Assembly (NCBI GenBank): GCA_963733195.1
Contig: CAVTCR010000017.1
Coordinates: 32,001-96,000 of the forward strand
Direction: 5' to 3'
Origin: an uncultured delta proteobacterium
GTDB taxonomy: Bacteria; Desulfobacterota; Binatia; Bin18
Length of the DNA: 64,000 nt
Of the stretch, positions 8,571 through 18,114 are shown piece by piece; the first letter of the stretch is position 1, and every line of letters starts with the position of its first letter. A program made the translations under genes and the position numbers. Under the pieces are notes generated by a model. The model was not told the DNA's origin, did no database searches, and was given only the letters and a program-made list of their open reading frames with translations.

Positions 8571-8614
8571 TTGACTTCATTTCAAGCGTGACTTATGTAG
8601 TCAAATTAGACTAC
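8571..8614 (+). promoter_or_regulatory. Putative sigma70 promoter overlapped by an inverted-repeat operator
   Basis: TTGACT (8571-76), 17 nt, TATGTA (8594-99); GTAGTC-N6-GACTAC inverted repeat at 8597-8614 just upstream of the PadR gene. Confidence 0.55.
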
Positions 8615-8632
8615 TCTGAAGAAAGTAATTCA

Positions 8633-9223
8633 GTGAGCGTTCAACTCGTCATCCTTGGTCTACTTTCGGAAAAGCCACGCCACGGCTACGAACTTCGTCA
8701 AGAAGTCGAACGCCGACTCTACGCGACCTACATGAACCTCAGTGGGGGTTCGCTTTATTACAACCTCGGGCGGTTAGAACGAGCCGGGTATGTTGAGAAA
8801 ACCCGTGTTGAGCAGAACGGTCGTTACCCTGCCCGCCGAATCTATCAGATCACTCCAGACGGAGCTGTCCATTTCCGTACCGAACTGCGGAAACTTTTAT
8901 TTGACGTCGAGGGGCGAGAAAAGGTATTTGACCCTTTTAATACCGCACTCGCCTTTGGCCATTTTGTTGATGAAGAGGAACTTCGCGAAGCGGTGACCGC
9001 GCAGCTCAAATGGGCGCAAGAACGTGTGGCGTGGATTCGTACGCAGCAGGAGTTCTGGCAATCTCAGGAAATCTCCTTTGCACAGGGAAAAATTATCGAA
9101 CATGGGCTGGCACACTATGAAGCAGAAATTCGCTGGTTGCAGCACTTTCTGCGTGACCTTGATGTCCGTGAAATGAAGGCACTGAAGCAAGAGCCCAGAG
9201 CCAGCGTCTCTAAAATAAAATAG
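8633..9223 (+). CDS. PadR-family transcriptional regulator
   Basis: ILGLLSEKPRHGYEL, GSLYYNLGRLERAGYV, RRIYQITPDG; start set to GTG 8633. Confidence 0.92.
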   Translation: MSVQLVILGLLSEKPRHGYELRQEVERRLYATYMNLSGGSLYYNLGRLERAGYVEKTRVEQNGRYPARRIYQITPDGAVHFRTELRKLLFDVEGREKVFDPFNTALAFGHFVDEEELREAVTAQLKWAQERVAWIRTQQEFWQSQEISFAQGKIIEHGLAHYEAEIRWLQHFLRDLDVREMKALKQEPRASVSKIK

Positions 9224-9257: not shown

Positions 9258-9911
9258 GTGGAAGGTCAACAAGGATTAAGCGTACTCGATATGATTCAAC
9301 AGGGGTGGTACATCACCTACCCCTTAATCGTGATTTCGATCATCACTATCACGGTGATTTGTGAGCGACTCTGGGCGCTCCGGGGGCTAATCGGTGGCAC
9401 TCTGCGTGTCGCAGGAGGGTTAGTCGGTAGATTGCAAAAGGGCGATTTCAAGGGGGCACTGACGTCGGCACAGCAGGACAAGACCGCGCCTGCCGCGCGA
9501 ATCTTCCGCGATGTCATTTCTCAGCAAGACGGGGAATCGCTTGAGTATCTTTCCGAGATCGTCGAAGACCGTCGGTTTGAGGAGATCGATGCCCTTAAAG
9601 GAGCGATTTGGATTCTCGGCACTGTCGCGGTGAGCGCCCCGTTTATCGGGCTGTTGGGAACCGTAGTTGGTATCATTAAGTCATTCCACAGCATGTCGGT
9701 CACTGGCAGTGGCGGGTTCACCGTGGTTGCTGGTGGTATCTCGGAAGCGTTGATCGCCACCGCCCTGGGGTTGGCCGTCGCCATCATCGCGGTCATTTTT
9801 TACAACTACTTTCAGACCAAGCTCGAACGCATTGAGTCAGCGATGACGATCGCGTCTGACCGCGTGCTGGAAGCGATTCGCATGGGGAGGAAAGCTCATG
9901 GGAATGTCTAG
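9258..9911 (+). CDS. MotA/TolQ/ExbB proton channel subunit (copy 1)
   Basis: APFIGLLGTVVGII, GGISEALIATALGLAVAI. Confidence 0.93.
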   Translation: MEGQQGLSVLDMIQQGWYITYPLIVISIITITVICERLWALRGLIGGTLRVAGGLVGRLQKGDFKGALTSAQQDKTAPAARIFRDVISQQDGESLEYLSEIVEDRRFEEIDALKGAIWILGTVAVSAPFIGLLGTVVGIIKSFHSMSVTGSGGFTVVAGGISEALIATALGLAVAIIAVIFYNYFQTKLERIESAMTIASDRVLEAIRMGRKAHGNV

Positions 9912-10320
9912 CCCACGCAAGAAAAAAGGCAGCAGTTCGGCCATCATGGCCGAGATTAACATCACCCCGCTGACTGACGTCTTCTTGGTGCTGTTGATTA
10001 TTTTCATGGTTACCAGCGTGGCTATGGTGCAGTCGGGCGCCAACATCAATCTGCCAGAGGTGGAAGAGACCAAGTCAGAACCTCGACAGATTGTGATTAC
10101 CGTCACACCCAAGAAAGAAGTGTTCATCAACAACACCCCAGTATCGCTGGCCGACCTGGAAGGATTCCTCCGTCCTCTGATTCTGGCGCAACCAGACATC
10201 CCGGTTGTATTAGAGGGGGATAAGGAGGTGTTGATGGGAGACGCAGTGCAAATTCTTGCCGTCGCCCAAAGAGCTGGGGCAAAAACTATCGCGGTTGCTT
10301 CTGAAAAAAGGTCAAGTTGA
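9898..10320 (+). CDS. ExbD/TolR subunit (copy 1)
   Basis: EINITPLTDVFLVLLIIFMV with conserved TM Asp; INLP; LEGDK. Confidence 0.93.
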   Translation: MGMSSPRKKKGSSSAIMAEINITPLTDVFLVLLIIFMVTSVAMVQSGANINLPEVEETKSEPRQIVITVTPKKEVFINNTPVSLADLEGFLRPLILAQPDIPVVLEGDKEVLMGDAVQILAVAQRAGAKTIAVASEKRSS

Positions 10321-10354: not shown

Positions 10355-11659
10355 ATGGCTGAAGAACGAAAAAAATCACCGGCACTGACCTCCATTCAAC
10401 AAGAGCTGCAAGAGGACATGTGGCTGTACCGCGGACAGCGAGTAGGGAAAAATGCCCGCTGGTTTGCTCTCTCTGCCGTTGCCCATGTGTTACTCCTCGG
10501 ACTCTTCGCCACGGTCTCGATGACGATCGCGCATAAACGCCAAGAGCTGGTGAAACTCGCGAAAGTCCAAGACCTGGCGCCTTCACTCGAAGAGCTGGAA
10601 CGGATGAGGAAGGCGCAAGCTGAGGAGAAAAAGCCTGAAGACTGGGAAGGTGAGCCTTCACTCAAAGACCTGCCAGGCGTGTTAACCATGGAGCAGTTGG
10701 CGCCGAAGAAAGCCTCGACGCCGGCTGGGCCGCCGCCGGAAGTGGGTAACGTCCAAGCCGTTCGTGCGCCGGTTATTCCAGTCGCGCCTCCACCGCCAAC
10801 AGCGAGATCACTTCCAGTAATTGAAGGACTAGGGCCGGGTGTCATTCAAGTAAACAACAACGGACGTGATGGTGCTGGCCAGCTCTCTAATCTTAATGCC
10901 ATCGGTGCGATCGGAGGAGCAATGGGCGGCCTCGGTGGTGCCGGTGGAGATTATGTTGGTGGGCTGCGCAAAGTCGGGCTTGATGTGGCTCTGGTGATCG
11001 ACGCGACCGACAGTATGCAGTTCGTGGCGGATTCGCTTAAATCTCGACTGCTCAAACTTATCGCTTCTCTCCACAAGATGGTGCCGACCACACGGATCGG
11101 TATCGTTGCGTATCGCGACAAGGGTGAAGAGTATGTCACCAAATGGGTCGATCTCAGCTTCTCGACCAGCAAGCTGCAAGATTTCGTCTCGAACCTACAA
11201 GCTGGGGGTGGTGGGGATTGGCCGGAAGCTGTGTTTGATGGACTCGAAGCCGCAGTCAATGATCTTAAATGGCGTAAAAATTCCAAGCGCGTCATCGTAC
11301 TTGTGGCAGGTTCGCCTCCGCATCCAGACAGCGTGGGCAACGTACTCGGGCTAGTGCAAAATTTTCAGGCCCAGGGTGGGATGGTGAGTGTTCTGGATAT
11401 GGCTGACAAAATGCACGAAGATTTCGAGCGTGCCATCTATAGAACCAGCTCGCAGCTGATCGCAAGTGAGTTCAAAGTCTCCCCGCTACCGGCATTTTAC
11501 CAGGAGTTCCGTAACACTATGTCGTCAATTGCTAAAGCTGGGGGCGGAGAATTCATCCCGCTCACTGAGGATAAAGCGCTGACGAAGCAGATTATCGTCA
11601 TGACGTTTGGCTCACGCTGGCAGACGGAGATGGCGAAGTGGCTGCGTGATTTGGAATAA
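10355..11659 (+). CDS. Membrane-anchored protein: TonB-like TM, Pro/Gly-rich linker, C-terminal vWA domain
   Basis: TM SAVAHVLLLGLFATVS; PAGPPP...APPPPT linker; vWA DVALVIDATDSM, GIVAYRD, GGGGDWPEAV. Confidence 0.85.
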   Translation: MAEERKKSPALTSIQQELQEDMWLYRGQRVGKNARWFALSAVAHVLLLGLFATVSMTIAHKRQELVKLAKVQDLAPSLEELERMRKAQAEEKKPEDWEGEPSLKDLPGVLTMEQLAPKKASTPAGPPPEVGNVQAVRAPVIPVAPPPPTARSLPVIEGLGPGVIQVNNNGRDGAGQLSNLNAIGAIGGAMGGLGGAGGDYVGGLRKVGLDVALVIDATDSMQFVADSLKSRLLKLIASLHKMVPTTRIGIVAYRDKGEEYVTKWVDLSFSTSKLQDFVSNLQAGGGGDWPEAVFDGLEAAVNDLKWRKNSKRVIVLVAGSPPHPDSVGNVLGLVQNFQAQGGMVSVLDMADKMHEDFERAIYRTSSQLIASEFKVSPLPAFYQEFRNTMSSIAKAGGGEFIPLTEDKALTKQIIVMTFGSRWQTEMAKWLRDLE

Positions 11660-11773: not shown

Positions 11774-14192
11774 GTGCAACTGTTGGTGATTTTTTCCTTT
11801 CTCTGTTCACTGGTAGGGATCGTCTCGTTTCCGCAGACGAGCACCGCGGAAACCGTCGCAAGCTTGTTAGGACAAGCCCGCCAAGCCAGCGCGCAAGTAC
11901 GCGGGCTTAAAAACGGCAGTACCAGCGACAAGCAACAAGCGATTCAGATTCTCGGGCCGATTGCACTCAGTCTCGTTGGTGCTTCTGATCTTGCCTCGGC
12001 AGCGCAATCACAACGGGGAACAGTGCGAGAGGTCTACGAAACACTGAACGGCCCACTCGAAGACATTTACGAGGCTGCCTTTGCTGATATCAACCGGATG
12101 AGCAAGCGTGTCATGGATATCGATGGTGATCTTGAAGCCCTCTACGAAACCAGAGAATGGAAAGACGCTCAGCTTGTCGCTTCACAATCCCTCTATTTTC
12201 TCAATTGGTTGCGGTATATCGGTTCTTATGTCGTTGACGGCGGAAAACGAAAAGAACTGCTGCAGAAAGCTGCCGATGGATTCTCTGAATTTGCCGTTGG
12301 CCAACAGGGTTCGCAACTCAAACGTGAGAGTCTCTTTGGTCGTGCATTAGCAGAAAAGGACTTGCGACAATTTGATTGGGCGATTCGTGATTTTGAGTTG
12401 CTCTTGCAGGAGCCCAACCTGCCTAACGACATGGAACGCAAGGTGCGTGCGAGTCTCGCCGACGCCAAGGCTAGAAAAGCACGCGGGGGGAATCAGAAGG
12501 ACGATGATAGTAATGCCCCAGCGCCGCCGACCCCTGAAGACATTGCTAAAGCGTACTTAGACAAAGCAAGAAGTTTATTCGAACGTCGCCGCAAAGAAAC
12601 TGGGGCGACACGGGAGAAGACCCTTCTCGAAGCACTCGCGTATGCTGAGGAGGCGAAAAAGAAAAGCGACAAACTCAAAGGCCCTGCGGATGCATTGATA
12701 AAGGAAGAGCTGACTCCTGAAGAAACCGCTATGCTTGAGGAGGAACGGAATCCGTTTCCCCAGTGGAAGGAAGCGACCGAACTCTTACGCGCGAACAACT
12801 ATGCGCAAGCGGTTCCTCTTCTCAAAGAGGTAGTAGCGTCGGGCGACCCACGAGCCACTGCCCATCGTCGGGATGCCCTGTATTTTCTCAGTGCCGGTCT
12901 TTTCCAGCAGGGCGAATATCGCCAAACGATCGAGCGTGTTGATGAATTCTTTGGCAATGACGGTGCTCCGGCACGCTACGGTGCTGATGCGGCGTATCTG
13001 CGTTTCAAAGCTGCTGAGAAAATCTATTCTAGTAGCAAACCGCCGACCGAAGAGAATACCAAACTCTATGTGACAACGACAAAAGACTTTATCCGTCGCT
13101 ATCCGACGCACAAATCGATCTTTGAGGCGTACTTTCGTCTCGGCGAGTACGAACAGAGCAAGGAAAACTACCTGGGAGCGGTGGACTACTATCAAAAAGT
13201 GACAGGTGATGTACCGTTCCGTGTACGGGCAGACTACGCGTCTTTGCAGAGCTATTCTGCGCTCCAAGAAGCGATTGATGAGAAGAAGCCAGTTCCTATT
13301 GCCGAGAAAGATTTGCGATCGCGGATCGGGGCGAGCTTGCAATCGTTCTGGAAGAACCTTGCTGTCCTCGATCAAAACCCCGCCCAAGCACAGCAGATCA
13401 AGGACCTCAAAGAATGGCGCGGAAAAGCAACCTTCATGAACGCCGTTTATCTTGGCAAGGATATGGACGCGAACGCGACTGCGCTTGTGTCCTTGTTACA
13501 AGATTTTGAGAAAAAATATCCTGAACAGAAAGATGCCTTTGAGTCAGTTGCACGTACACGTCTTATTGTTCTGCAAAAGACGGGACGGTACGCTGAACTA
13601 GAGAAGGAAACAGAGCGAATTTTTGCGACCTACAACGGCGAACAGCAGCAGGAGTTGGTAAAAGGACTGAATCAGGTACTGACTTCAGACATCAAACGAT
13701 TGGAAAAGGGCGGCGACAAGGAGAAAGACAATGTACTCGTTGCCAAGCGTACCTTAGCACGATTGCATGCCGAACGTCTCAGACGTGGCGATGCCTTTGG
13801 GCCAGAGGAGTCTCCAGAGCAATTCAAGTATGATTTGGCTCAACTCTATCTTGACATTAAAGACTACGACAAGGCCGAGGCGATCTACCAAGAACTACGA
13901 CAAGGTGCATACTCTCTCGCGGCACTGGCCGGATTGGCACAGATCGCCGATGTGAAAGGGGATACAAATCAATCTTTCGCCTTATGGAGTGACTTACTCA
14001 AAGAGGCAAAACCGGACGAACCTGCATGGTTTCGTGGCACCTATGGCGTTGCTCAACTCCAAGCCAAGCAAGGTAACAAAGAGCAATCGTGCAAAACTAT
14101 TAGTGAGGCATTTGTGCAGGATTAGCCAACTGAGAGACGCCGGTCTGAAAAAACGGATTCAAGAGCTATCGTTGCAGAGTTGTAAGAAGTGA
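11774..14192 (+). CDS. Large exported TPR/alpha-solenoid protein (frameshift near 14110)
   Basis: Signal peptide; TPR-like segments (ALYFLSAGLFQQGEY, AYFRLGEYEQSKENY, KYDLAQLYLDIKDY); C-terminus continues in the frame ending at 14192. Confidence 0.8.
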
Positions 14193-14310: not shown

Positions 14311-14973
14311 ATGTCAACAGAACCAATCTCCGGGGGATTGTGGTTTTTCATTGTCAAAGGCGGACCGGTGATGATTCCCATCATCATCCTGTCAATTGTT
14401 GCGCTCACGATCATCTTCGCAAAATTCTGGGAACTCTGGCGGTTTCGCCTTCGTCTCAACAACTTAACGAATAAACTCTACAATCTTGTACAAGATGGTA
14501 ATATCTCTGGCGCACTCAAGGCTAGTCGCGAGGATGCAACAGCACTGGGACGTGTATTTGAGAGTGCAATTGTCCATCGCACGCAAGAGCGCTCTGAGTT
14601 GACACGCCGGTTGGAGCGGTTTGGTGGTGATGTGGTCGCTGACCTGGAATCGTATATGGGTGCGCTTGCTACCATCATCGGCGTTGAACCGATGCTGGGT
14701 TTTCTCGGCACTATCGTTGGCCTCATTAAGGCGTTTATGAATTGGGAAACGATGGGTGATCGTATTACCATCAACCTATTAGCTGGTGGTATCTATGAGG
14801 CAATGATCACTACGGCCGCAGGGCTTATTGTCGCCATTCCTTACTATCTGATTTACAACCACTTAGTTACGAAAGTCGGTAAGCTTACGCGGCTGACCGA
14901 AGAGCGGACGGAAGAGTTTGTTGATTTGGTCACAGACATGAATGTCAAGGAGCCGGTTCGTCATGCGCTTTAA
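14311..14973 (+). CDS. MotA/TolQ/ExbB proton channel subunit (copy 2)
   Basis: KGGPVMIPIIILS, PMLGFLGTIVGLI, GGIYEAMITTAAGLIVAIP. Confidence 0.93.
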   Translation: MSTEPISGGLWFFIVKGGPVMIPIIILSIVALTIIFAKFWELWRFRLRLNNLTNKLYNLVQDGNISGALKASREDATALGRVFESAIVHRTQERSELTRRLERFGGDVVADLESYMGALATIIGVEPMLGFLGTIVGLIKAFMNWETMGDRITINLLAGGIYEAMITTAAGLIVAIPYYLIYNHLVTKVGKLTRLTEERTEEFVDLVTDMNVKEPVRHAL

Positions 14974-15382
14974 ACGGCAGAGTAAGCTCATGTTCAGTAT
15001 GGAGTCAGTGGCGATCACTGACATCATCATGAACATGTTCATCTTCTTCTTCATCACTTTCAGTTTTCTTGCCTCGTTCAATAAATCAAGAGAGGGCCAA
15101 GTCGATGTGAACCTGCCGAAAGCGACCTCGGCCTCTCCGCCGATCGAGCGCAAGAGCCTCACAGTGAGTCTAACCAAAGAGGGAGGTCTCTTTCTCAACG
15201 ACGCGCCAATTTCCCTTGAGCAGCTCAAAACTCGCATGCAAGAAGAAAAAGGCCAAGCTGTAGAAGTAACGCTTGTGGTGCGAGCCGATAAAGAAGTCCA
15301 GCATGGTCGCGTCGTCGAGGTCATGGACATCGCTCGTAACGAAGGACTCAATCGCCTGGCCATCGGGGCGCAAGCGCGATAG
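14963..15382 (+). CDS. ExbD/TolR subunit (copy 2)
   Basis: AITDIIMNMFIFFFIT with TM Asp, VNLPKA, VVRADKEVQHGRVVEVMD; start ATG 14963. Confidence 0.92.
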   Translation: MRFKRQSKLMFSMESVAITDIIMNMFIFFFITFSFLASFNKSREGQVDVNLPKATSASPPIERKSLTVSLTKEGGLFLNDAPISLEQLKTRMQEEKGQAVEVTLVVRADKEVQHGRVVEVMDIARNEGLNRLAIGAQAR

Positions 15383-15470: not shown

Positions 15471-16379
15471 ATGCAAACTGCGTGGCAACAACAGAACCTT
15501 ACTGCTATTACTCACCGTCTTGCCGCTGTGAAACGACTACCGGCTGGCATCCTCTTTGAGCGTAAGTCGCAGTACAATCACATCATCGTCCGTAAGACCT
15601 CAGAGCAACTCTTACTTTGTTATCGTCACGAGCGGCATCGTACTGAGGAAGTGGAATCGCGGCTTGATCCGGAGAATCCGCTCGCGTTACTGTCGGATTA
15701 CACACAAGCCATGCTGTTGGCGTTGGCGTGGCAATCCGCACCGCAACGGGTTCTATTACTAGGACTTGGTGGTGGCCGTTTGCAGATGGTGCTGCATCAT
15801 TACCTCGAACACCTCGAACTCTACACCGTAGAACTCGATCCTCTGGTTGTCGAAGTAGCTCAACGTTTCTTTGCCTGGGAAACGGACCCACGCCAGCATC
15901 TGACGGTGAAAGACGGACGTGATTATCTGCGCGGGTTTCCTACTGAAGCACCATATGATGTGATTCTGCTTGATGCCTTTCAAGTGAGCGGTATTCCCGT
16001 GCATCTGTGCACACGCGAGTTTTTTGCTGAGTGTCGTGAGAATCTTACTCCAGAGGGGATCGTTGCAACCAATCTCCACATCTCCACCTCGATTTACGAT
16101 TCAATCCGTAAAACTTTTGCAGCAGCGTTTCGTTCGACCACTGCGTTTCGTTTGCTCGGCGGCAATGTGGTGGTAGTTGGTAGCGAAGCCGAGCGATTAA
16201 CATTACCAGAGATTCGCGAGCGCATAGCCGCCGTGCAAGAGCGGTACGGATTTAATTTTGCCTTGCCCGAACTCGCGCGCCGCGAAGCTTCCGGTGCGTC
16301 CTATCGTCAGAGTGCGCCGATCTTGCGTGATGCGTATACGCCAATGGGGGAAATGCCTCCTCCGACTACGCGACGGTAA
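15471..16379 (+). CDS. Spermidine synthase-like SAM-dependent transferase
   Basis: SQYNHI, VLLLGLGGG, VELDPLVVEVAQRFF, DGRDYL, YDVILLDAF. Confidence 0.85.
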   Translation: MQTAWQQQNLTAITHRLAAVKRLPAGILFERKSQYNHIIVRKTSEQLLLCYRHERHRTEEVESRLDPENPLALLSDYTQAMLLALAWQSAPQRVLLLGLGGGRLQMVLHHYLEHLELYTVELDPLVVEVAQRFFAWETDPRQHLTVKDGRDYLRGFPTEAPYDVILLDAFQVSGIPVHLCTREFFAECRENLTPEGIVATNLHISTSIYDSIRKTFAAAFRSTTAFRLLGGNVVVVGSEAERLTLPEIRERIAAVQERYGFNFALPELARREASGASYRQSAPILRDAYTPMGEMPPPTTRR

Positions 16380-16403: not shown

Positions 16404-18114
16404 TTACTCCCCACCCTTTGCCAACACCTCTACTACTGGCACCGGTTTCTCTTTGCCCTTGACCGCCATTGTCGCTGTCCGTCCGAGCGTGAATTCTGGG
16501 CCGAGATGCGAGGCGGTCACTTCCGAAATGACAATCGTCGTTTGCAGCTCTTTGGTAAGCCCTTCAATCCGACTTGCCAAGTTCACCGGATCACCTATTA
16601 CTGAATATTCGACACGTTTGTCTGGACCAATCAGTCCAGCAACGACTTCACCAGTGTGAATACCGACGCCAATGCGGAGGACAGGGAAATCCTGTTCTTG
16701 TAACCGAACGTTGAGCGATCTAAGCCGTTCTACCATCCCTAATGCCGCTCGTACTGCTCGTGCAGGACTATCAGGGTACTCGTTTGGTGCACCAAAGAGT
16801 GCCATCACACCGTCACCTGTAAATTGATTGACGACCCCACCTTCGGCCTCGACGGCTGCGACCATCTCGGTGAAAAACTGATTGAGCATACGGACCAATA
16901 TGGCCGGATCAGTCCGCTCACTAATGGTGGTGAACCCACGAATATCCTGGAAAAGAATACTTATCTCACGACGTTCGCCAGCCAGGGGCACGTGTCCACT
17001 GAGTACAGCGTTCGCAATATCCTGTGAGACAAACCGACCGAAGGTGTCTTTGATCTTCTCTCGTTCTTCGAGTCCGCTGACCATCTCGTTGAATGAGGCA
17101 CCAAGAAACCCGATTTCATCTTGTCGTTTGACTGCAATTCGCTGGTTGAAGTTGCCCTGGAGCACTTGCTGCATACTTTGTACTAAGGTCTGAATCGGTG
17201 CGGTAATTCCGCTGGTAAGCCCACCGCCAAGCACTAATGCGCCAAGCAGCGCCGCAAGCCCGACTCCGGCGATTCGCCACCGTAGGCCGGCTAACGGTGC
17301 AAGCGCGGCGTCGTACGAACGCTGCACCAGTGCGTAGAGCGGTGAAGGAAGCTGCGATTGAATCGGGACCAGCAGAGACAAGAAACGCTCCCCCTTCAAG
17401 CTGAGCAAAAAAGTCTGGTCTGGTGGGTGCTGGAAAATCTCCGCTGTGGGCCGCTGACCCGGTGTCAGAAGTTGTCGTTCGGTCGGTGGCCACGATGAGG
17501 AAAACAGTCGCTCTTGAGTAAGAAACGACACTTCAGACCCAGTCTGTTCTTTCAGTTGTTGCACAGTAATATCACCGATGCTCGTACCTAACAGGAGGAA
17601 GCCGATCACTCTGGGAGCGAGGATAGGTACGACCATGAACTGATAGAGGGCAGCGTCGACTTCGATGACCAGGACCACAGGTGAAGCGGCAGCAAATGCC
17701 TCTTCGAATGCCGGGAAGAATGGCGAGTTCTTTGCCACTGACGAACTTGCCGCTTGAGTCAGCAAACAGCACTCCAGTTTCATCGGTAATCCAGAGTACG
17801 TCTCCACCTGTGCGGTCACGATAATTCTGCGCGACAGAGAGGAGTGTCAAAGAATCCCGCGTCGCAAACGCCTTTTTGAGTGCAAAGTCAGAAGCTAACA
17901 ATTCTGCTTTTTCGAGCAGGTGTTCGGCGCGCCCTTTCATGGCGCGTCGAAACACTTGATCGGTGACTTGCAGCTCGCGCGTGAGGATTGATTGAACCTG
18001 GCGACTCACCATCAGTTGGGTGAGCCACAGAGTGAGAACCAACAACAAGAGGATCAGCGCTGAGAAGGCAAGAAAAATCTTCGTGCGTATCCGACTACGG
18101 GCCCACCATGTCAT
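16404..18114 (-). CDS. Class III adenylate/guanylate cyclase with periplasmic Cache-like and HAMP domains (frameshift near 17715)
   Basis: Joins ORFs 17572-18114 and 16404-17819; RQDEIGFLGASFNEM (HAMP), ILFQDIRGFT, FTGDGVMALFGAP, GDPVNLASRIE. Confidence 0.88.

What the first reader, a model, noticed from the sequence alone, without database searches (positions are those of the whole stretch)
10355..11659. TonB-like transducer whose C-terminal domain is a vWA/MIDAS domain
Seen: the single TM helix SAVAHVLLLGLFATVS has S, H(+4), F(+11), S(+15), followed by a charged and Pro/Gly-rich linker and a vWA domain (DATDS, AYRD, GGGGDWPEA). Known: the TonB/TolA SHLS motif has spacing S, H+4, L+11, S+15 and couples to ExbBD; MIDAS sites bind acidic residues of partners through a metal and can be force-sensitive. 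Inference: a motor-coupled metal-dependent hook replacing TonB_C.
Basis: partly seen in the sequence, partly recalled or inferred. Interest (0 to 1): 0.8.

Follow-up and report, generated by a model that had tools for sequence, protein, structure and literature searches.

The report
Motor-coupled membrane protein with vWA head
This gene encodes a TonB-like inner-membrane protein that carries an integrin-type adhesion (vWA) domain instead of the usual TonB end, sits next to its own proton-driven motor genes, and belongs to a class of bacterial "force transducers" that was predicted by computer in 2025 and has never been tested.

Summary
Window 10355-11659 (+) encodes a 434-aa protein with one TM helix (S40, H44, F51, S55), a 146-residue disordered Pro/Gly-rich linker and a C-terminal vWA domain (Pfam; best structural match BatB, Z 18.3). 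It lies in exbB-exbD-vWA-TPR, followed by a second exbB-exbD.

- **TM motif:** His is kept in 98 of 98 and Ser in 97 of 98 complete homologues, and in 71 of 74 loci from other phyla.
- **Synteny:** motor genes flank the gene in 79 of 80 and 65 of 74 loci.
- **Topology:** relatives with an N-terminal FHA domain, and a signal peptide on the co-conserved TPR protein, place the vWA domain in the periplasm.

The metal site resembles that of integrin beta subunits (DxTxS, DxPE) but has Ser where Asp is expected.

The genome also has a complete Tol-Pal cluster and an orphan TonB-like gene, so this is a third, separate system.

The idea is already in print as a computational prediction (Williams-Jones et al., MBE 2025, PMC12204202). 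This is therefore a new member, in Binatia, of a recently proposed and untested class. Co-folding gave only weak support for vWA-TPR binding (0.45 against a best control of 0.01).

The parts
8588..9223 (+). PadR-family transcriptional regulator, first gene of the conserved block in the close family
   Evidence: Pfam PadR 63.9 bits. Found upstream of exbB1 in the family-level loci.
9258..9911 (+). ExbB1: MotA/TolQ/ExbB-type proton-channel subunit, the motor gene that travels with the vWA gene
   Evidence: Pfam MotA_ExbB 112.4 bits. Below the NCBIfam tolQ and exbB equivalog cut-offs. In all 18 loci with an adjacent ExbB, that gene matches ExbB1 better than ExbB2.
9898..10320 (+). ExbD1: ExbD/TolR-type subunit with a TM Asp (ITPLTDVF)
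   Evidence: Pfam ExbD 92.7 bits. Sequence read.
10355..11659 (+). The finding: a 434-aa TonB-like anchored vWA protein
10460..10528 (+). TM helix, residues 36-58, with S40 (10472-10474) and H44 (10484-10486)
   Evidence: Invariant in A1. His kept in 98 of 98 and Ser in 97 of 98 loci.
10640..10699 (+). Conserved DWEGEPSLKDLPGVLTMEQL, residues 96-115: candidate 'motor box'
   Evidence: G99, S102, D105, G108 and L110 are invariant in 30 sequences. AlphaFold2 predicts a short strand at 112-115, but at low pLDDT. The assignment is inference by analogy with PMC12204202.
10700..10966 (+). Disordered Pro/Gly-rich spacer, residues 116-204
   Evidence: 13 Pro and 19 Gly in 89 residues. pLDDT <50.
10967..11659 (+). 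vWA domain, residues 205-434. MIDAS-like residues: D216, T218, S220 (11000-11014); D288, P290, E291 (within 11204-11230); S320
   Evidence: Pfam. Foldseek and VIA-align. D216, S220 and E291 are invariant, and T218, D288 and S320 are kept in at least 90% of 33 sequences. Weak alignment to integrin beta-3 and beta-8.
11774..14125 (+). Secreted 783-aa all-alpha TPR solenoid, the co-conserved candidate partner
   Evidence: Signal peptide. AlphaFold2 mean pLDDT 87, all helices. Generic TPR-scaffold matches. Present beside the vWA gene in 77 of 80 loci. Co-fold gave weak support.
14311..14973 (+). ExbB2: a second, divergent motor subunit, not part of the core module
   Evidence: Pfam 91.5 bits. 32% identical to ExbB1. 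Found only in the close family, and displaced or not found in L014, L015, L016 and L019.
14942..15382 (+). ExbD2: partner of ExbB2, with a TM Asp (AITDII)
   Evidence: Pfam ExbD 84.2 bits. Sequence read.

Best explanation
The gene encodes the force-transducer (TonB/TolA-equivalent) subunit of a third, dedicated proton-motive-force motor system in a Binatia bacterium.

- **Shown:** a single N-terminal TM helix with the TonB/TolA-type Ser-x3-His signature, a long disordered Pro/Gly-rich spacer, a C-terminal vWA domain, and a four-gene module exbB-exbD-vWA-TPR conserved across phyla.
- **Inferred:**
  - The N-terminus is cytoplasmic. The helix docks on the rim of an ExbB1(5)-ExbD1(2) motor through the Ser40/His44 face, as TonB and TolA do.
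  - The conserved DWEGEPSLKDLPGVL segment contacts the periplasmic ExbD1 dimer (the 'motor box').
  - The spacer lets the vWA head reach across the periplasm.
  - The head uses an integrin-beta-like metal site (D216, T218, S220, E291) to grip an acidic residue of a partner. The most likely partner is the co-encoded secreted 783-aa TPR solenoid, or something that solenoid scaffolds at the outer membrane or cell wall.
  - Motor rotation then pulls on that link.

The cellular process served is unknown. It is neither Tol-Pal nor classical TonB-dependent uptake, because the genome encodes both of those separately.
For: **Architecture.**

**Ser/His conservation.**
- Invariant in 30 homologues.
- His in 98 of 98 and Ser in 97 of 98 complete N-termini.
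- Present in 8 of 8 distant representatives.
- Present in 71 of 74 loci from other phyla.
- The genome's own TolA piece shows the same helix type, LLSAVLHVVVIG.

**Synteny.**
- exbB and/or exbD beside the gene in 18 of 20 loci, 79 of 80 and 65 of 74.
- The gene order is shuffled in distant members (vWA-exbB-exbD-TPR; vWA-TPR-exbB-exbD; exbB-exbD-exbD-x-vWA), so the linkage is kept through rearrangement.
- The adjacent ExbB is always of the ExbB1 type (18 of 18).
- No + strand terminator-like site lies between 9800 and 14300.

**Topology.** FHA-TM-vWA relatives; signal peptide on the TPR protein.

**Phyletic pattern.**
- The TPR protein was found in 34 of the 35 relatives' genomes that have the vWA gene.
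- It was found in 2 of the 6 that lack a vWA match, and one of those two has the locus broken at contig ends.
- Kin are not independent.

**Separate from Tol and Ton.** The genome holds a full tolQ-tolR-tolA-tolB-pal-cpoB cluster on C1, two TonB-dependent receptors and an orphan TonB-like gene on C63. That gives three intact motors and three Ser-His transducer candidates.

**Metal site.** D216, S220 and E291 are invariant, and T218 and D288 are kept in at least 90% of 33 sequences down to 27% identity.

**Co-fold of TPR 26-783 with vWA 200-434: weak support.**
- Score 0.45, best of 3 controls 0.01.
- Runs agree in at least 58% of contacts; partner pLDDT at least 64.
- The mark was reached by 58 of 80 solved complexes and 2 of 110 mismatched pairs. 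At 0.60 or under it was reached by only 7 of those 80 and by both mismatches that passed.

**Print.** PMC12204202 proposes the same mechanism for TMH-SHLS-vWA proteins beside tolQ, tolR and TPR genes, with AF3 models placing the His at the motor rim (passages read).
Against: - No experiment exists for any member. The paper itself says that no deletion phenotypes have been reported.
- SHLS positions +11 and +15 are not conserved.
- The 'motor box' strand is predicted at pLDDT of about 30-36 only, and its binding to ExbD1 was not tested.
- The positive-inside rule does not decide topology: 4 K+R on either side.
- The fifth MIDAS position is Ser320 in this clade. The 8 distant representatives aligned have Asp there. 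Metal binding is therefore not assured.
- The alignment to integrin beta subunits is weak: E 0.5-2 by phmmer, and the Pfam match covers 80 of 248 profile positions.
- The co-fold support for the TPR partner is weak, and no interface was returned.
- In G032 and G040 the TPR homologue lies on another contig.
- Four relatives have an ExbB1-like gene of 46-51% identity but no vWA match: G026, G027, G031 and G035. A TPR match was also not found in G027, G031 and G035, whereas G026 has one beside its ExbB.
Confidence: 0.65

Rival explanations
1. The protein is motor-associated but does not transmit force. It binds ExbB1-ExbD1 through the Ser/His helix and acts as a periplasmic tether, scaffold or regulator. 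It might, for example, anchor or gate the stator together with the TPR solenoid, as TPR scaffolds hold flagellar stators. Alternatively it might be a sensor whose vWA head reports the state of the envelope.
For: - It rests on the same synteny and Ser/His data as the best explanation.
- Among the TPR model's generic matches is the periplasmic TPR scaffold of the Campylobacter flagellar motor: 9hmf_K, E 9.8e-07, though TM-score is only 0.19.
- Some relatives carry a cytoplasmic FHA domain, a signalling module.
- A PadR regulator heads the block.
Against: - A 146-residue flexible spacer ending in a ligand-binding head is the TonB/TolA design, not that of a local plug.
- The 9hmf match is no better than the matches to dozens of unrelated TPR proteins.
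- Nothing tested here separates tethering from pulling.
Confidence: 0.2
2. It is a Bat-type (Bacteroides aerotolerance, BatA/BatB-like) membrane-anchored vWA protein. It works with a TPR protein in the periplasm, independently of the neighbouring motor genes.
For: - The best structural matches of the vWA domain are BatB of B. thetaiotaomicron (3ibs: Foldseek E 1.8e-10; Z 18.3) and an 'aerotolerance-related membrane protein' of B. fragilis (4jdu).
- Bat operons also pair vWA and TPR proteins (recalled, not from a call).
Against: - No MoxR ATPase lies near the gene. The strong AAA_3 matches are on contigs C13 and C59, not C17.
- No BatA_N or DUF58 match appears among the window's proteins.
- Linkage to exbB/exbD survives gene-order shuffling and crosses phyla.
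- An invariant membrane-embedded His is unexplained by a passive anchor.
- The Z of 18.3 is only slightly above CMG2 (17.4) and integrin I domains (about 16), so the fold match does not single out Bat.
Confidence: 0.08
3. The topology is inverted, or the vWA domain is cytoplasmic, working with a cytoplasmic AAA+ or MoxR-type partner. In that case the gene's position beside exbBD would be incidental.
For: - Charge counts around the helix are equal: 4 against 4.
- Many bacterial vWA proteins are cytoplasmic partners of MoxR (recalled).
Against: - Relatives have FHA domains on the N-terminal side of the same helix.
- The Ser-to-His order runs N to C, as in N-in TonB and TolA (the genome's own TolA).
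- The co-conserved TPR protein is secreted.
- No MoxR gene is in the neighbourhood.
Confidence: 0.03

Closest known systems
IM-tethered vWA 'motor-driven force transducers' of Williams-Jones et al., Mol Biol Evol 2025 (PMC12204202, section 8 and Fig. 4 legend; passages read)
   Same: [quoted passage not shown]
- Encoded beside tolQ/tolR-like motor genes and an uncharacterised TPR gene.
- No known function.
   Different: - The paper names Proteobacteria, Planctomycetes, Verrucomicrobia, Bacteroidetes and Rhodothermaeota. 'Binat', 'Desulfobacterota', 'MIDAS' and 'metal' do not occur in its main text.
- The gene order here is exbB-exbD-vWA-TPR with one exbD. The paper describes TPR, tolQ and two different tolR genes, then vWA. 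One Binatia relative, L029, does have two exbD genes.
TonB and TolA (Ton and Tol-Pal systems)
   Same: - N-terminal single TM helix with Ser-x3-His, a flexible periplasm-spanning region, and a position directly after exbB-exbD.
- The genome's own TolA helix (LLSAVLHVV) resembles the target's (ALSAVAHVL).
   Different: - No TonB_C, TonB_2 or TolA domain is present. The C-terminal domain is a 230-residue vWA domain with a metal-site motif rather than a beta-strand-addition module.
- The genome has separate TolA and TonB-like genes.
BatB/BatA aerotolerance-operon vWA proteins of Bacteroides (PDB 3ibs, 4jdu)
   Same: - Closest solved fold: Z 18.3, rmsd 3.0 over 181 residues.
- Membrane-anchored bacterial vWA proteins that occur together with TPR proteins (the second point is recalled).
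   Different: - No MoxR or DUF58 neighbours.
- 14-16% sequence identity.
- Bat proteins are not known to carry an SHLS helix or to be linked to exbBD (recalled).
Integrin beta-subunit I-like (beta-I) domain
   Same: - Pfam Integrin_beta scores 28.6 bits against a cut-off of 24.8.
- 'GGGGDWPEAVFDG..WRK' aligns with beta-3 and beta-8 'D.PEGGFDA..WR'.
- DxTxSM resembles the DLSYSM-type MIDAS start.
- Glu291 stands where beta subunits have their MIDAS Glu. The residue roles are recalled.
   Different: - The match covers only about 80 of 248 profile positions, and the phmmer E-values are 0.5-2.
- Reading the sequence, there are no ADMIDAS Asp-Asp residues after the DxSxS motif.
- Ser320 stands where integrins have Asp.
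- There is no hybrid-domain insertion.
Agl-Glt gliding machinery of Myxococcus xanthus (TolQR-like motor, TonB-like GltG/J, vWA adhesin CglB)
   Same: A PMF motor of the Tol/Exb type works together with a vWA-domain protein and TPR proteins across the envelope. Source: abstracts seen in the search listings for PMC9946355 and PMC11761067.
   Different: - There the vWA protein (CglB) is an outer-membrane lipoprotein adhesin, separate from the TonB-like proteins. Here the vWA domain is fused to the TonB-like anchor.
- No other glt genes were looked for.

Membership tests
TonB/TolA-type periplasmic force transducers | N-terminal single TM helix with a conserved Ser-x3-His (SHLS) motor-binding motif | tested here: met
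   S40 and H44 are invariant in 30 sequences. His is kept in 98 of 98 and Ser in 97 of 98 loci. Positions +11 and +15 vary.
TonB/TolA-type periplasmic force transducers | Encoded with, and dependent on, an ExbB/TolQ-ExbD/TolR motor | tested here: met
   Adjacency is met in 79 of 80 loci, 18 of 20 and 65 of 74. Functional dependence cannot be tested with these tools.
TonB/TolA-type periplasmic force transducers | Disordered post-TM segment with a beta-strand 'motor box' that binds the ExbD/TolR dimer | tested here: inconclusive
   Conserved motif at residues 96-111 and a predicted strand at 112-115, but at pLDDT of about 30-36. Binding to ExbD1 was not modelled.
TonB/TolA-type periplasmic force transducers | C-terminal TonB_C/TolA domain III that binds its target by beta-strand addition | tested here: not met
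   Pfam finds only vWA families in residues 205-434. The fold is vWA. The protein therefore works like TonB/TolA but is not a member of that family.
vWA-type motor-driven force transducers (PMC12204202) | SHLS TM helix, disordered linker and C-terminal vWA fold | tested here: met
vWA-type motor-driven force transducers (PMC12204202) | Synteny with tolQ/tolR-like motor genes and an uncharacterised TPR gene | tested here: met
   The order and the number of exbD genes differ from the PVC arrangement described.
vWA-type motor-driven force transducers (PMC12204202) | Sequence homology to the published Tichowtungia reference family | not tested
   No reference sequence was in hand and supplements are closed. 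Indirect evidence only: the family reaches records titled Planctomycetota and Pseudomonadota, and the Atlas look-alikes include Planctomycetota and Verrucomicrobiota clusters (leads only).
vWA domain with a functional MIDAS metal site | DxSxS motif at the end of strand beta-1 | tested here: met
   D216-A-T218-D-S220 follows strand 208-216. D216 and S220 are invariant and T218 is kept in at least 90% of sequences. Thr replaces the first Ser.
vWA domain with a functional MIDAS metal site | Distal Thr (alpha-I type) or Glu (beta-I type) ligand | tested here: met
   E291 is invariant in 33 sequences. It aligns with the Glu of the integrin beta-3 and beta-8 'D.PEGGFDA' motif (weak E-values).
vWA domain with a functional MIDAS metal site | Asp after strand beta-4 | tested here: not met
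   This clade has G319-S320 ('GSPPH'), with S320 kept in at least 90%. The 8 distant representatives aligned have 'GDAPPH' with an invariant Asp. Actual metal binding cannot be tested here.
Bat (aerotolerance) vWA proteins | Operon with a MoxR AAA+ ATPase and a DUF58 protein; BatA N-terminal domain | tested here: not met
   No such Pfam match among the eight window proteins scanned. Strong AAA_3 matches lie only on contigs C13 and C59.
Zorya or other anti-phage systems with MotAB-like motors | Match to the ZorA, ZorB, ZorC or ZorD models | tested here: not met
   PADLOC gave no match for five of the six proteins. ExbB2 gave only generic 18-21-bit matches to the MotA/ExbB part of ZorA. The NCBIfam ZorA2 match is 23.3 bits against a cut-off of 700.

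The most novel reading that the evidence does not exclude
The vWA head is a bacterial, integrin-beta-like, force-bearing metal clasp. Driven by its private ExbB1-ExbD1 motor, it would repeatedly grip and pull an acidic residue of the secreted 783-aa TPR solenoid, or of cargo held by that solenoid. This would be a PMF-powered 'integrin' cycle in the periplasm serving a process other than Tol-Pal or TonB uptake. The clade-specific Asp-to-Ser change at the fifth metal position would tune the strength of the grip.
Probability: 0.2. Interest if true: 0.8.

Novelty: new member of a known kind. Interest (0 to 1): 0.5.

Why it matters
TonB and TolA were long the only known ways in which the inner-membrane proton gradient does mechanical work at the outer envelope. 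A third transducer type, ending in an adhesion-type metal-site domain, would mean that bacteria use 5:2 motors for tasks still unknown.

This locus gives a clean case:
- The organism has Tol-Pal, a TonB-like protein and this system side by side.
- The four-gene module is small.
- The family is large: 560 cluster representatives at E of 1e-30 or better.
- Record titles name bacterial groups that include cultured genera, where knock-outs might be feasible.

Beyond what is in print, this analysis adds:
- the Binatia clade;
- topology evidence from FHA-fused relatives;
- the integrin-beta-like make-up of the metal site and its Asp/Ser split;
- co-occurrence of the vWA and TPR genes;
- a weak co-fold signal between the two proteins.

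Tried and rejected
- **Profile search of PDB sequences with A1** found nothing at E of 0.01 or better. The fold had to be shown through a model instead.
- **Reaching other phyla.** The search for related loci with A1 and A3 returned almost only Binatia-type records. P0150 alone found no relative. A6 worked.
- **The listing of cluster members** on 10 distant representatives gave organism names for one cluster only (Binataceae), so it did not help with taxonomy.
- **Positive-inside rule:** uninformative.
- **Promoter and terminator scan:** numbers near the shuffle expectation (6 found against 5.1 expected; 14 against 9.0). It was used only to note that no + strand terminator-like site lies inside the exbB1-to-TPR stretch.
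- **Fold search of the TPR model** gave only generic TPR solenoids at TM-scores of 0.13-0.29, so it points to no specific relative.
- **ExbB2-ExbD2 as part of the core module: rejected.** The pair is found only in the close family. It is separated from the module by a molybdopterin oxidoreductase gene in L015, and not found in L014 or L019.
- **Defence-system (Zorya) and MoxR/Bat readings: rejected**.
- **Not attempted:** a model of the ExbB1 pentamer with ExbD1 and the TM helix. It exceeds the 1000-residue limit, and the single co-fold job went to the vWA-TPR question.
Full report
**What is there.**
Window 10355-11659 (+) is a 434-aa ORF with an ATG start and an AGGTG site 5 nt upstream. It lies in a same-strand block (Pfam):

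| Gene | Coordinates |
|---|---|
| PadR regulator | 8588-9223 |
| ExbB1 | 9258-9911 |
| ExbD1 | 9898-10320 |
| the target | 10355-11659 |
| 783-aa TPR protein | 11774-14125 |
| ExbB2 | 14311-14973 |
| ExbD2 | 14942-15382 |
| spermidine-synthase-like methyltransferase | 15471-16379 |

The protein has five parts:
- a 35-residue N-terminal segment;
- one TM helix, 36-58 (WFALSAVAHVLLLGLFATVSMTI);
- a charged segment, 59-95;
- a conserved DWEGEPSLKDLPGVLTMEQL motif, 96-115;
- a spacer, 116-204, with 13 Pro and 19 Gly in 89 residues;
- a vWA domain, 205-434.

AlphaFold2, run on a 30-sequence alignment, models the TM helix and the vWA domain (block means 56-92). It leaves 88-205 at pLDDT <50, with a short strand at 112-115. 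The vWA fold is secure:
- Foldseek's top hit is BatB of Bacteroides thetaiotaomicron, 3ibs, E 1.8e-10.
- VIA-align gives Z 18.3, rmsd 3.0 over 181 residues. CMG2 follows at Z 17.4, and integrin I domains score about 16.

**Is the Ser/His motif more than chance?**
- In 30 homologues of 49-92% identity, W36, S40, H44, L48 and T53 are invariant. Position +11 is F or L, and +15 is S, T or A.
- I examined 100 fetched loci. Two are cut by contig ends, and nine are the same contig fetched twice. His is kept in 98 of 98 and Ser in 97 of 98, with L021 having Ala.
- A profile search of 1.84 billion cluster representatives found 560 proteins at E of 1e-30 or better. All 8 distant ones that I read have S-x3-H in their single helix.
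- Of 74 further loci, from records titled Thermodesulfobacteriota, Desulfobacteraceae, Pseudomonadales, Porticoccaceae, Haliea, Hydrogenophaga, Myxococcota, Planctomycetota, Spirochaetales and others, 71 show it. The three exceptions are one cut ORF, one masked stretch and one just under my hydrophobicity threshold.
- In the organism's own 6.9-Mb genome I scanned for an N-terminal single S-x3-H helix in ORFs of at least 150 aa. The scan printed 6 ORFs. Four matter here: the TolA N-terminal piece, an orphan TonB-like protein, an L,D-transpeptidase and this gene. The other two share an identical segment and were not examined.

**Linkage to the motor.**
- The module exbB-exbD-vWA-TPR recurs in 18 of 20 loci from relatives' genomes.
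- In 79 of 80 named loci a motor gene flanks the vWA gene, and in 77 of 80 a TPR gene does. Nearly all the misses are at contig ends.
- In distant Binatia the order is shuffled but the genes stay together: vWA-exbB-exbD-TPR, vWA-TPR-exbB-exbD, and exbB-exbD-exbD-x-vWA.
- In other phyla an ExbB-like gene lies within 6 kb in 65 of 74 loci, an ExbD-like gene in 35 and a TPR-like gene in 39. These were found by tblastn with the window's proteins, which undercounts divergent genes.
- The adjacent ExbB is always closer to ExbB1 than to ExbB2 (18 of 18).
- ExbB2-ExbD2 occurs only in the close family. In L015 it is separated from the module by a molybdopterin oxidoreductase gene, and it was not found in L014 or L019. 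It is not part of the core.
- Both ExbD proteins keep the TM Asp.

**Topology.**
The positive-inside rule is silent: 4 K+R on each side. Three other facts place the vWA domain in the periplasm.
- Relatives P0186 and P0188 carry an FHA domain (E 4.8e-14 and 1.2e-10) N-terminal to the same helix.
- The Ser-to-His order is that of the genome's own N-in TolA.
- The co-conserved TPR protein has a cleavable-type signal peptide in the window and in all 16 orthologues examined.

**Not Tol-Pal and not the Ton system.**
- Contig C1 carries tolQ, tolR, tolA, tolB, pal and cpoB. There tolA reads as two adjacent ORFs, with the SAVLH helix in the first and the TonB_2, TonB_C and TolA domains in the second.
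- The genome has two TonB-dependent receptors.
- It also has an orphan 467-aa TonB-like gene on C63, with an SLIVH helix, a Pro/Lys-rich linker and weak TonB_2 and TonB_C matches.
- Only three intact ExbB-type genes exist.

This gives three motors and three Ser-His transducers. The pairing of ExbB2-ExbD2 with the orphan TonB-like protein is my inference.

**The metal site.**
- D216, S220 and E291 are invariant, and T218, D288 and S320 are kept in at least 90% of 33 sequences down to 27% identity.
- The stretch GGGGDWPEAVFDG...WRK aligns, weakly (E 0.5-2), with 'D.PEGGFDA...WR' of integrin beta-3 and beta-8. Pfam Integrin_beta passes its cut-off at 28.6 against 24.8 bits, over 80 of 248 positions.
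- After strand beta-4 this clade has Gly-Ser ('GSPPH'), whereas the 8 distant representatives aligned have Gly-Asp ('GDAPPH').

The site is therefore beta-I-like, with four of the five oxygen-donor positions conserved and the fifth softened. Whether it binds metal is not known.

**The partner.**
- The TPR protein folds confidently (mean pLDDT 87) as an all-helical solenoid. It has only generic TPR-scaffold matches.
- Across 41 related genomes the vWA gene was found in 35. The TPR gene was found in 34 of those 35, and in 2 of the 6 without a vWA match. One of those two is broken at contig ends. Kin are not independent.
- A co-fold of TPR 26-783 with vWA 200-434 gave weak support:
  - score 0.45, best of 3 controls 0.01;
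  - runs agree in at least 58% of contacts, and the partner's pLDDT is at least 64;
  - the mark was reached by 58 of 80 solved complexes and 2 of 110 mismatches, but at 0.60 or under by only 7 of the 80 and by both mismatches;
  - no interface was returned.

**Rivals.**
- A Bat-type reading fits the best fold match. It fails on neighbours, since MoxR lies on other contigs and no BatA_N or DUF58 is present. It also does not explain the invariant membrane His.
- Defence systems are excluded.
- A motor-bound tether or regulator, rather than a puller, cannot be separated from the main reading with these tools.

**Comparison with print.**
Williams-Jones et al. (Mol Biol Evol 2025, PMC12204202; outline, and passages of sections 4, 6, 7, 8 and 12 and the Fig. 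[quoted passage not shown] These are IM-tethered proteins with an SHLS helix, a motor box, a linker and a vWA C-terminal domain. [quoted passage not shown] AF3 models put the His at the motor rim, and no phenotype is known.

The paper's main text does not contain 'Binat', 'Desulfobacterota', 'MIDAS' or 'metal'. Full-text searches gave these results:
- 'SHLS' + 'vWA': that paper and one unrelated paper;
- 'ExbB' + 'ExbD' + 'von Willebrand': 11 papers, none on this protein type other than that one, judged by titles and abstracts;
- 'Binatia' + 'TonB': none.

The paper's supplements, which I could not open, may list the member sequences and could show whether Binatia-like sequences were already included.

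**Verdict.**
It is, however, a rediscovery of a class proposed in 2025. This locus is a new member in a phylum not named there. It has a simpler gene order, an integrin-beta-like metal site, topology evidence, and a first, weak, computational hint that the TPR protein is the ligand.

Noticed in passing
G000:C63:41098-42501 (- strand; L195:5099-6502): An orphan 467-aa TonB-like gene. It has an N-terminal helix with SLIVH, a very Pro/Lys/Glu-rich linker, and a C-terminal region with only weak TonB_2 (16.6 bits) and TonB_C (14.4 bits) matches. No exbB match lies on this contig. It may be the partner of the transducer-less ExbB2-ExbD2 pair in the window; that pairing is inference.
   Followed up: partly
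window 14311-15382: A second exbB-exbD pair sits directly after the TPR gene, and ExbB2 is only 32% identical to ExbB1. It occurs only in the close family. In relatives it is displaced by a molybdopterin oxidoreductase gene (L015) or was not found (L014, L019).
   Followed up: partly
G000:C1, L113:8526-9882 (- strand): The tolA gene of the canonical Tol-Pal cluster reads as two adjacent ORFs in different frames. The first is 181 aa with the TM helix and Pro-rich part. The second is 269 aa with the TonB_2, TonB_C and TolA domains. The neighbouring tolR ORF matches only positions 3-88 of the 128-position ExbD profile. These could be frameshifts in the assembly or real breaks.
   Followed up: no
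P0186, P0188 (cluster representatives): Relatives of 572 and 705 aa have an FHA domain fused N-terminal to the S-x3-H helix and vWA domain. Many other representatives of 500-730 aa match from about residue 100-260 onward, so N-terminal cytoplasmic extensions may be common. This suggests phospho-threonine signalling into some of these systems.
   Followed up: partly
window 10415-10465 (residues 21-37): The cytoplasmic segment just before the helix is conserved (consensus QEDLWL..G.R.GKNARWF; D21, W23, R35 and W36 are invariant or kept in at least 90% of 30 sequences). I recall no counterpart in TonB or TolA. It could contact the cytoplasmic face of ExbB1.
   Followed up: no
G000:C62:181696-182015: A MotA/ExbB-family match is split over three reading frames within 320 bases. 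This is either a broken motA-like gene or an assembly error.
   Followed up: no
L137/L130, L135/L153, L148/L168 and others: Several Binataceae genomes carry two copies of the vWA-transducer gene at distant places on the same contig, so the module is duplicated in that family.
   Followed up: no
window 16404-18114 (- strand): An adenylate/guanylate-cyclase-like ORF of 471 aa (judged only from the motif FTGDGVMALFGAP) overlaps the end of a 180-aa ORF that starts with a TM segment (17572-18114). Together they may be one sensor-cyclase gene interrupted by a frameshift.
   Followed up: no
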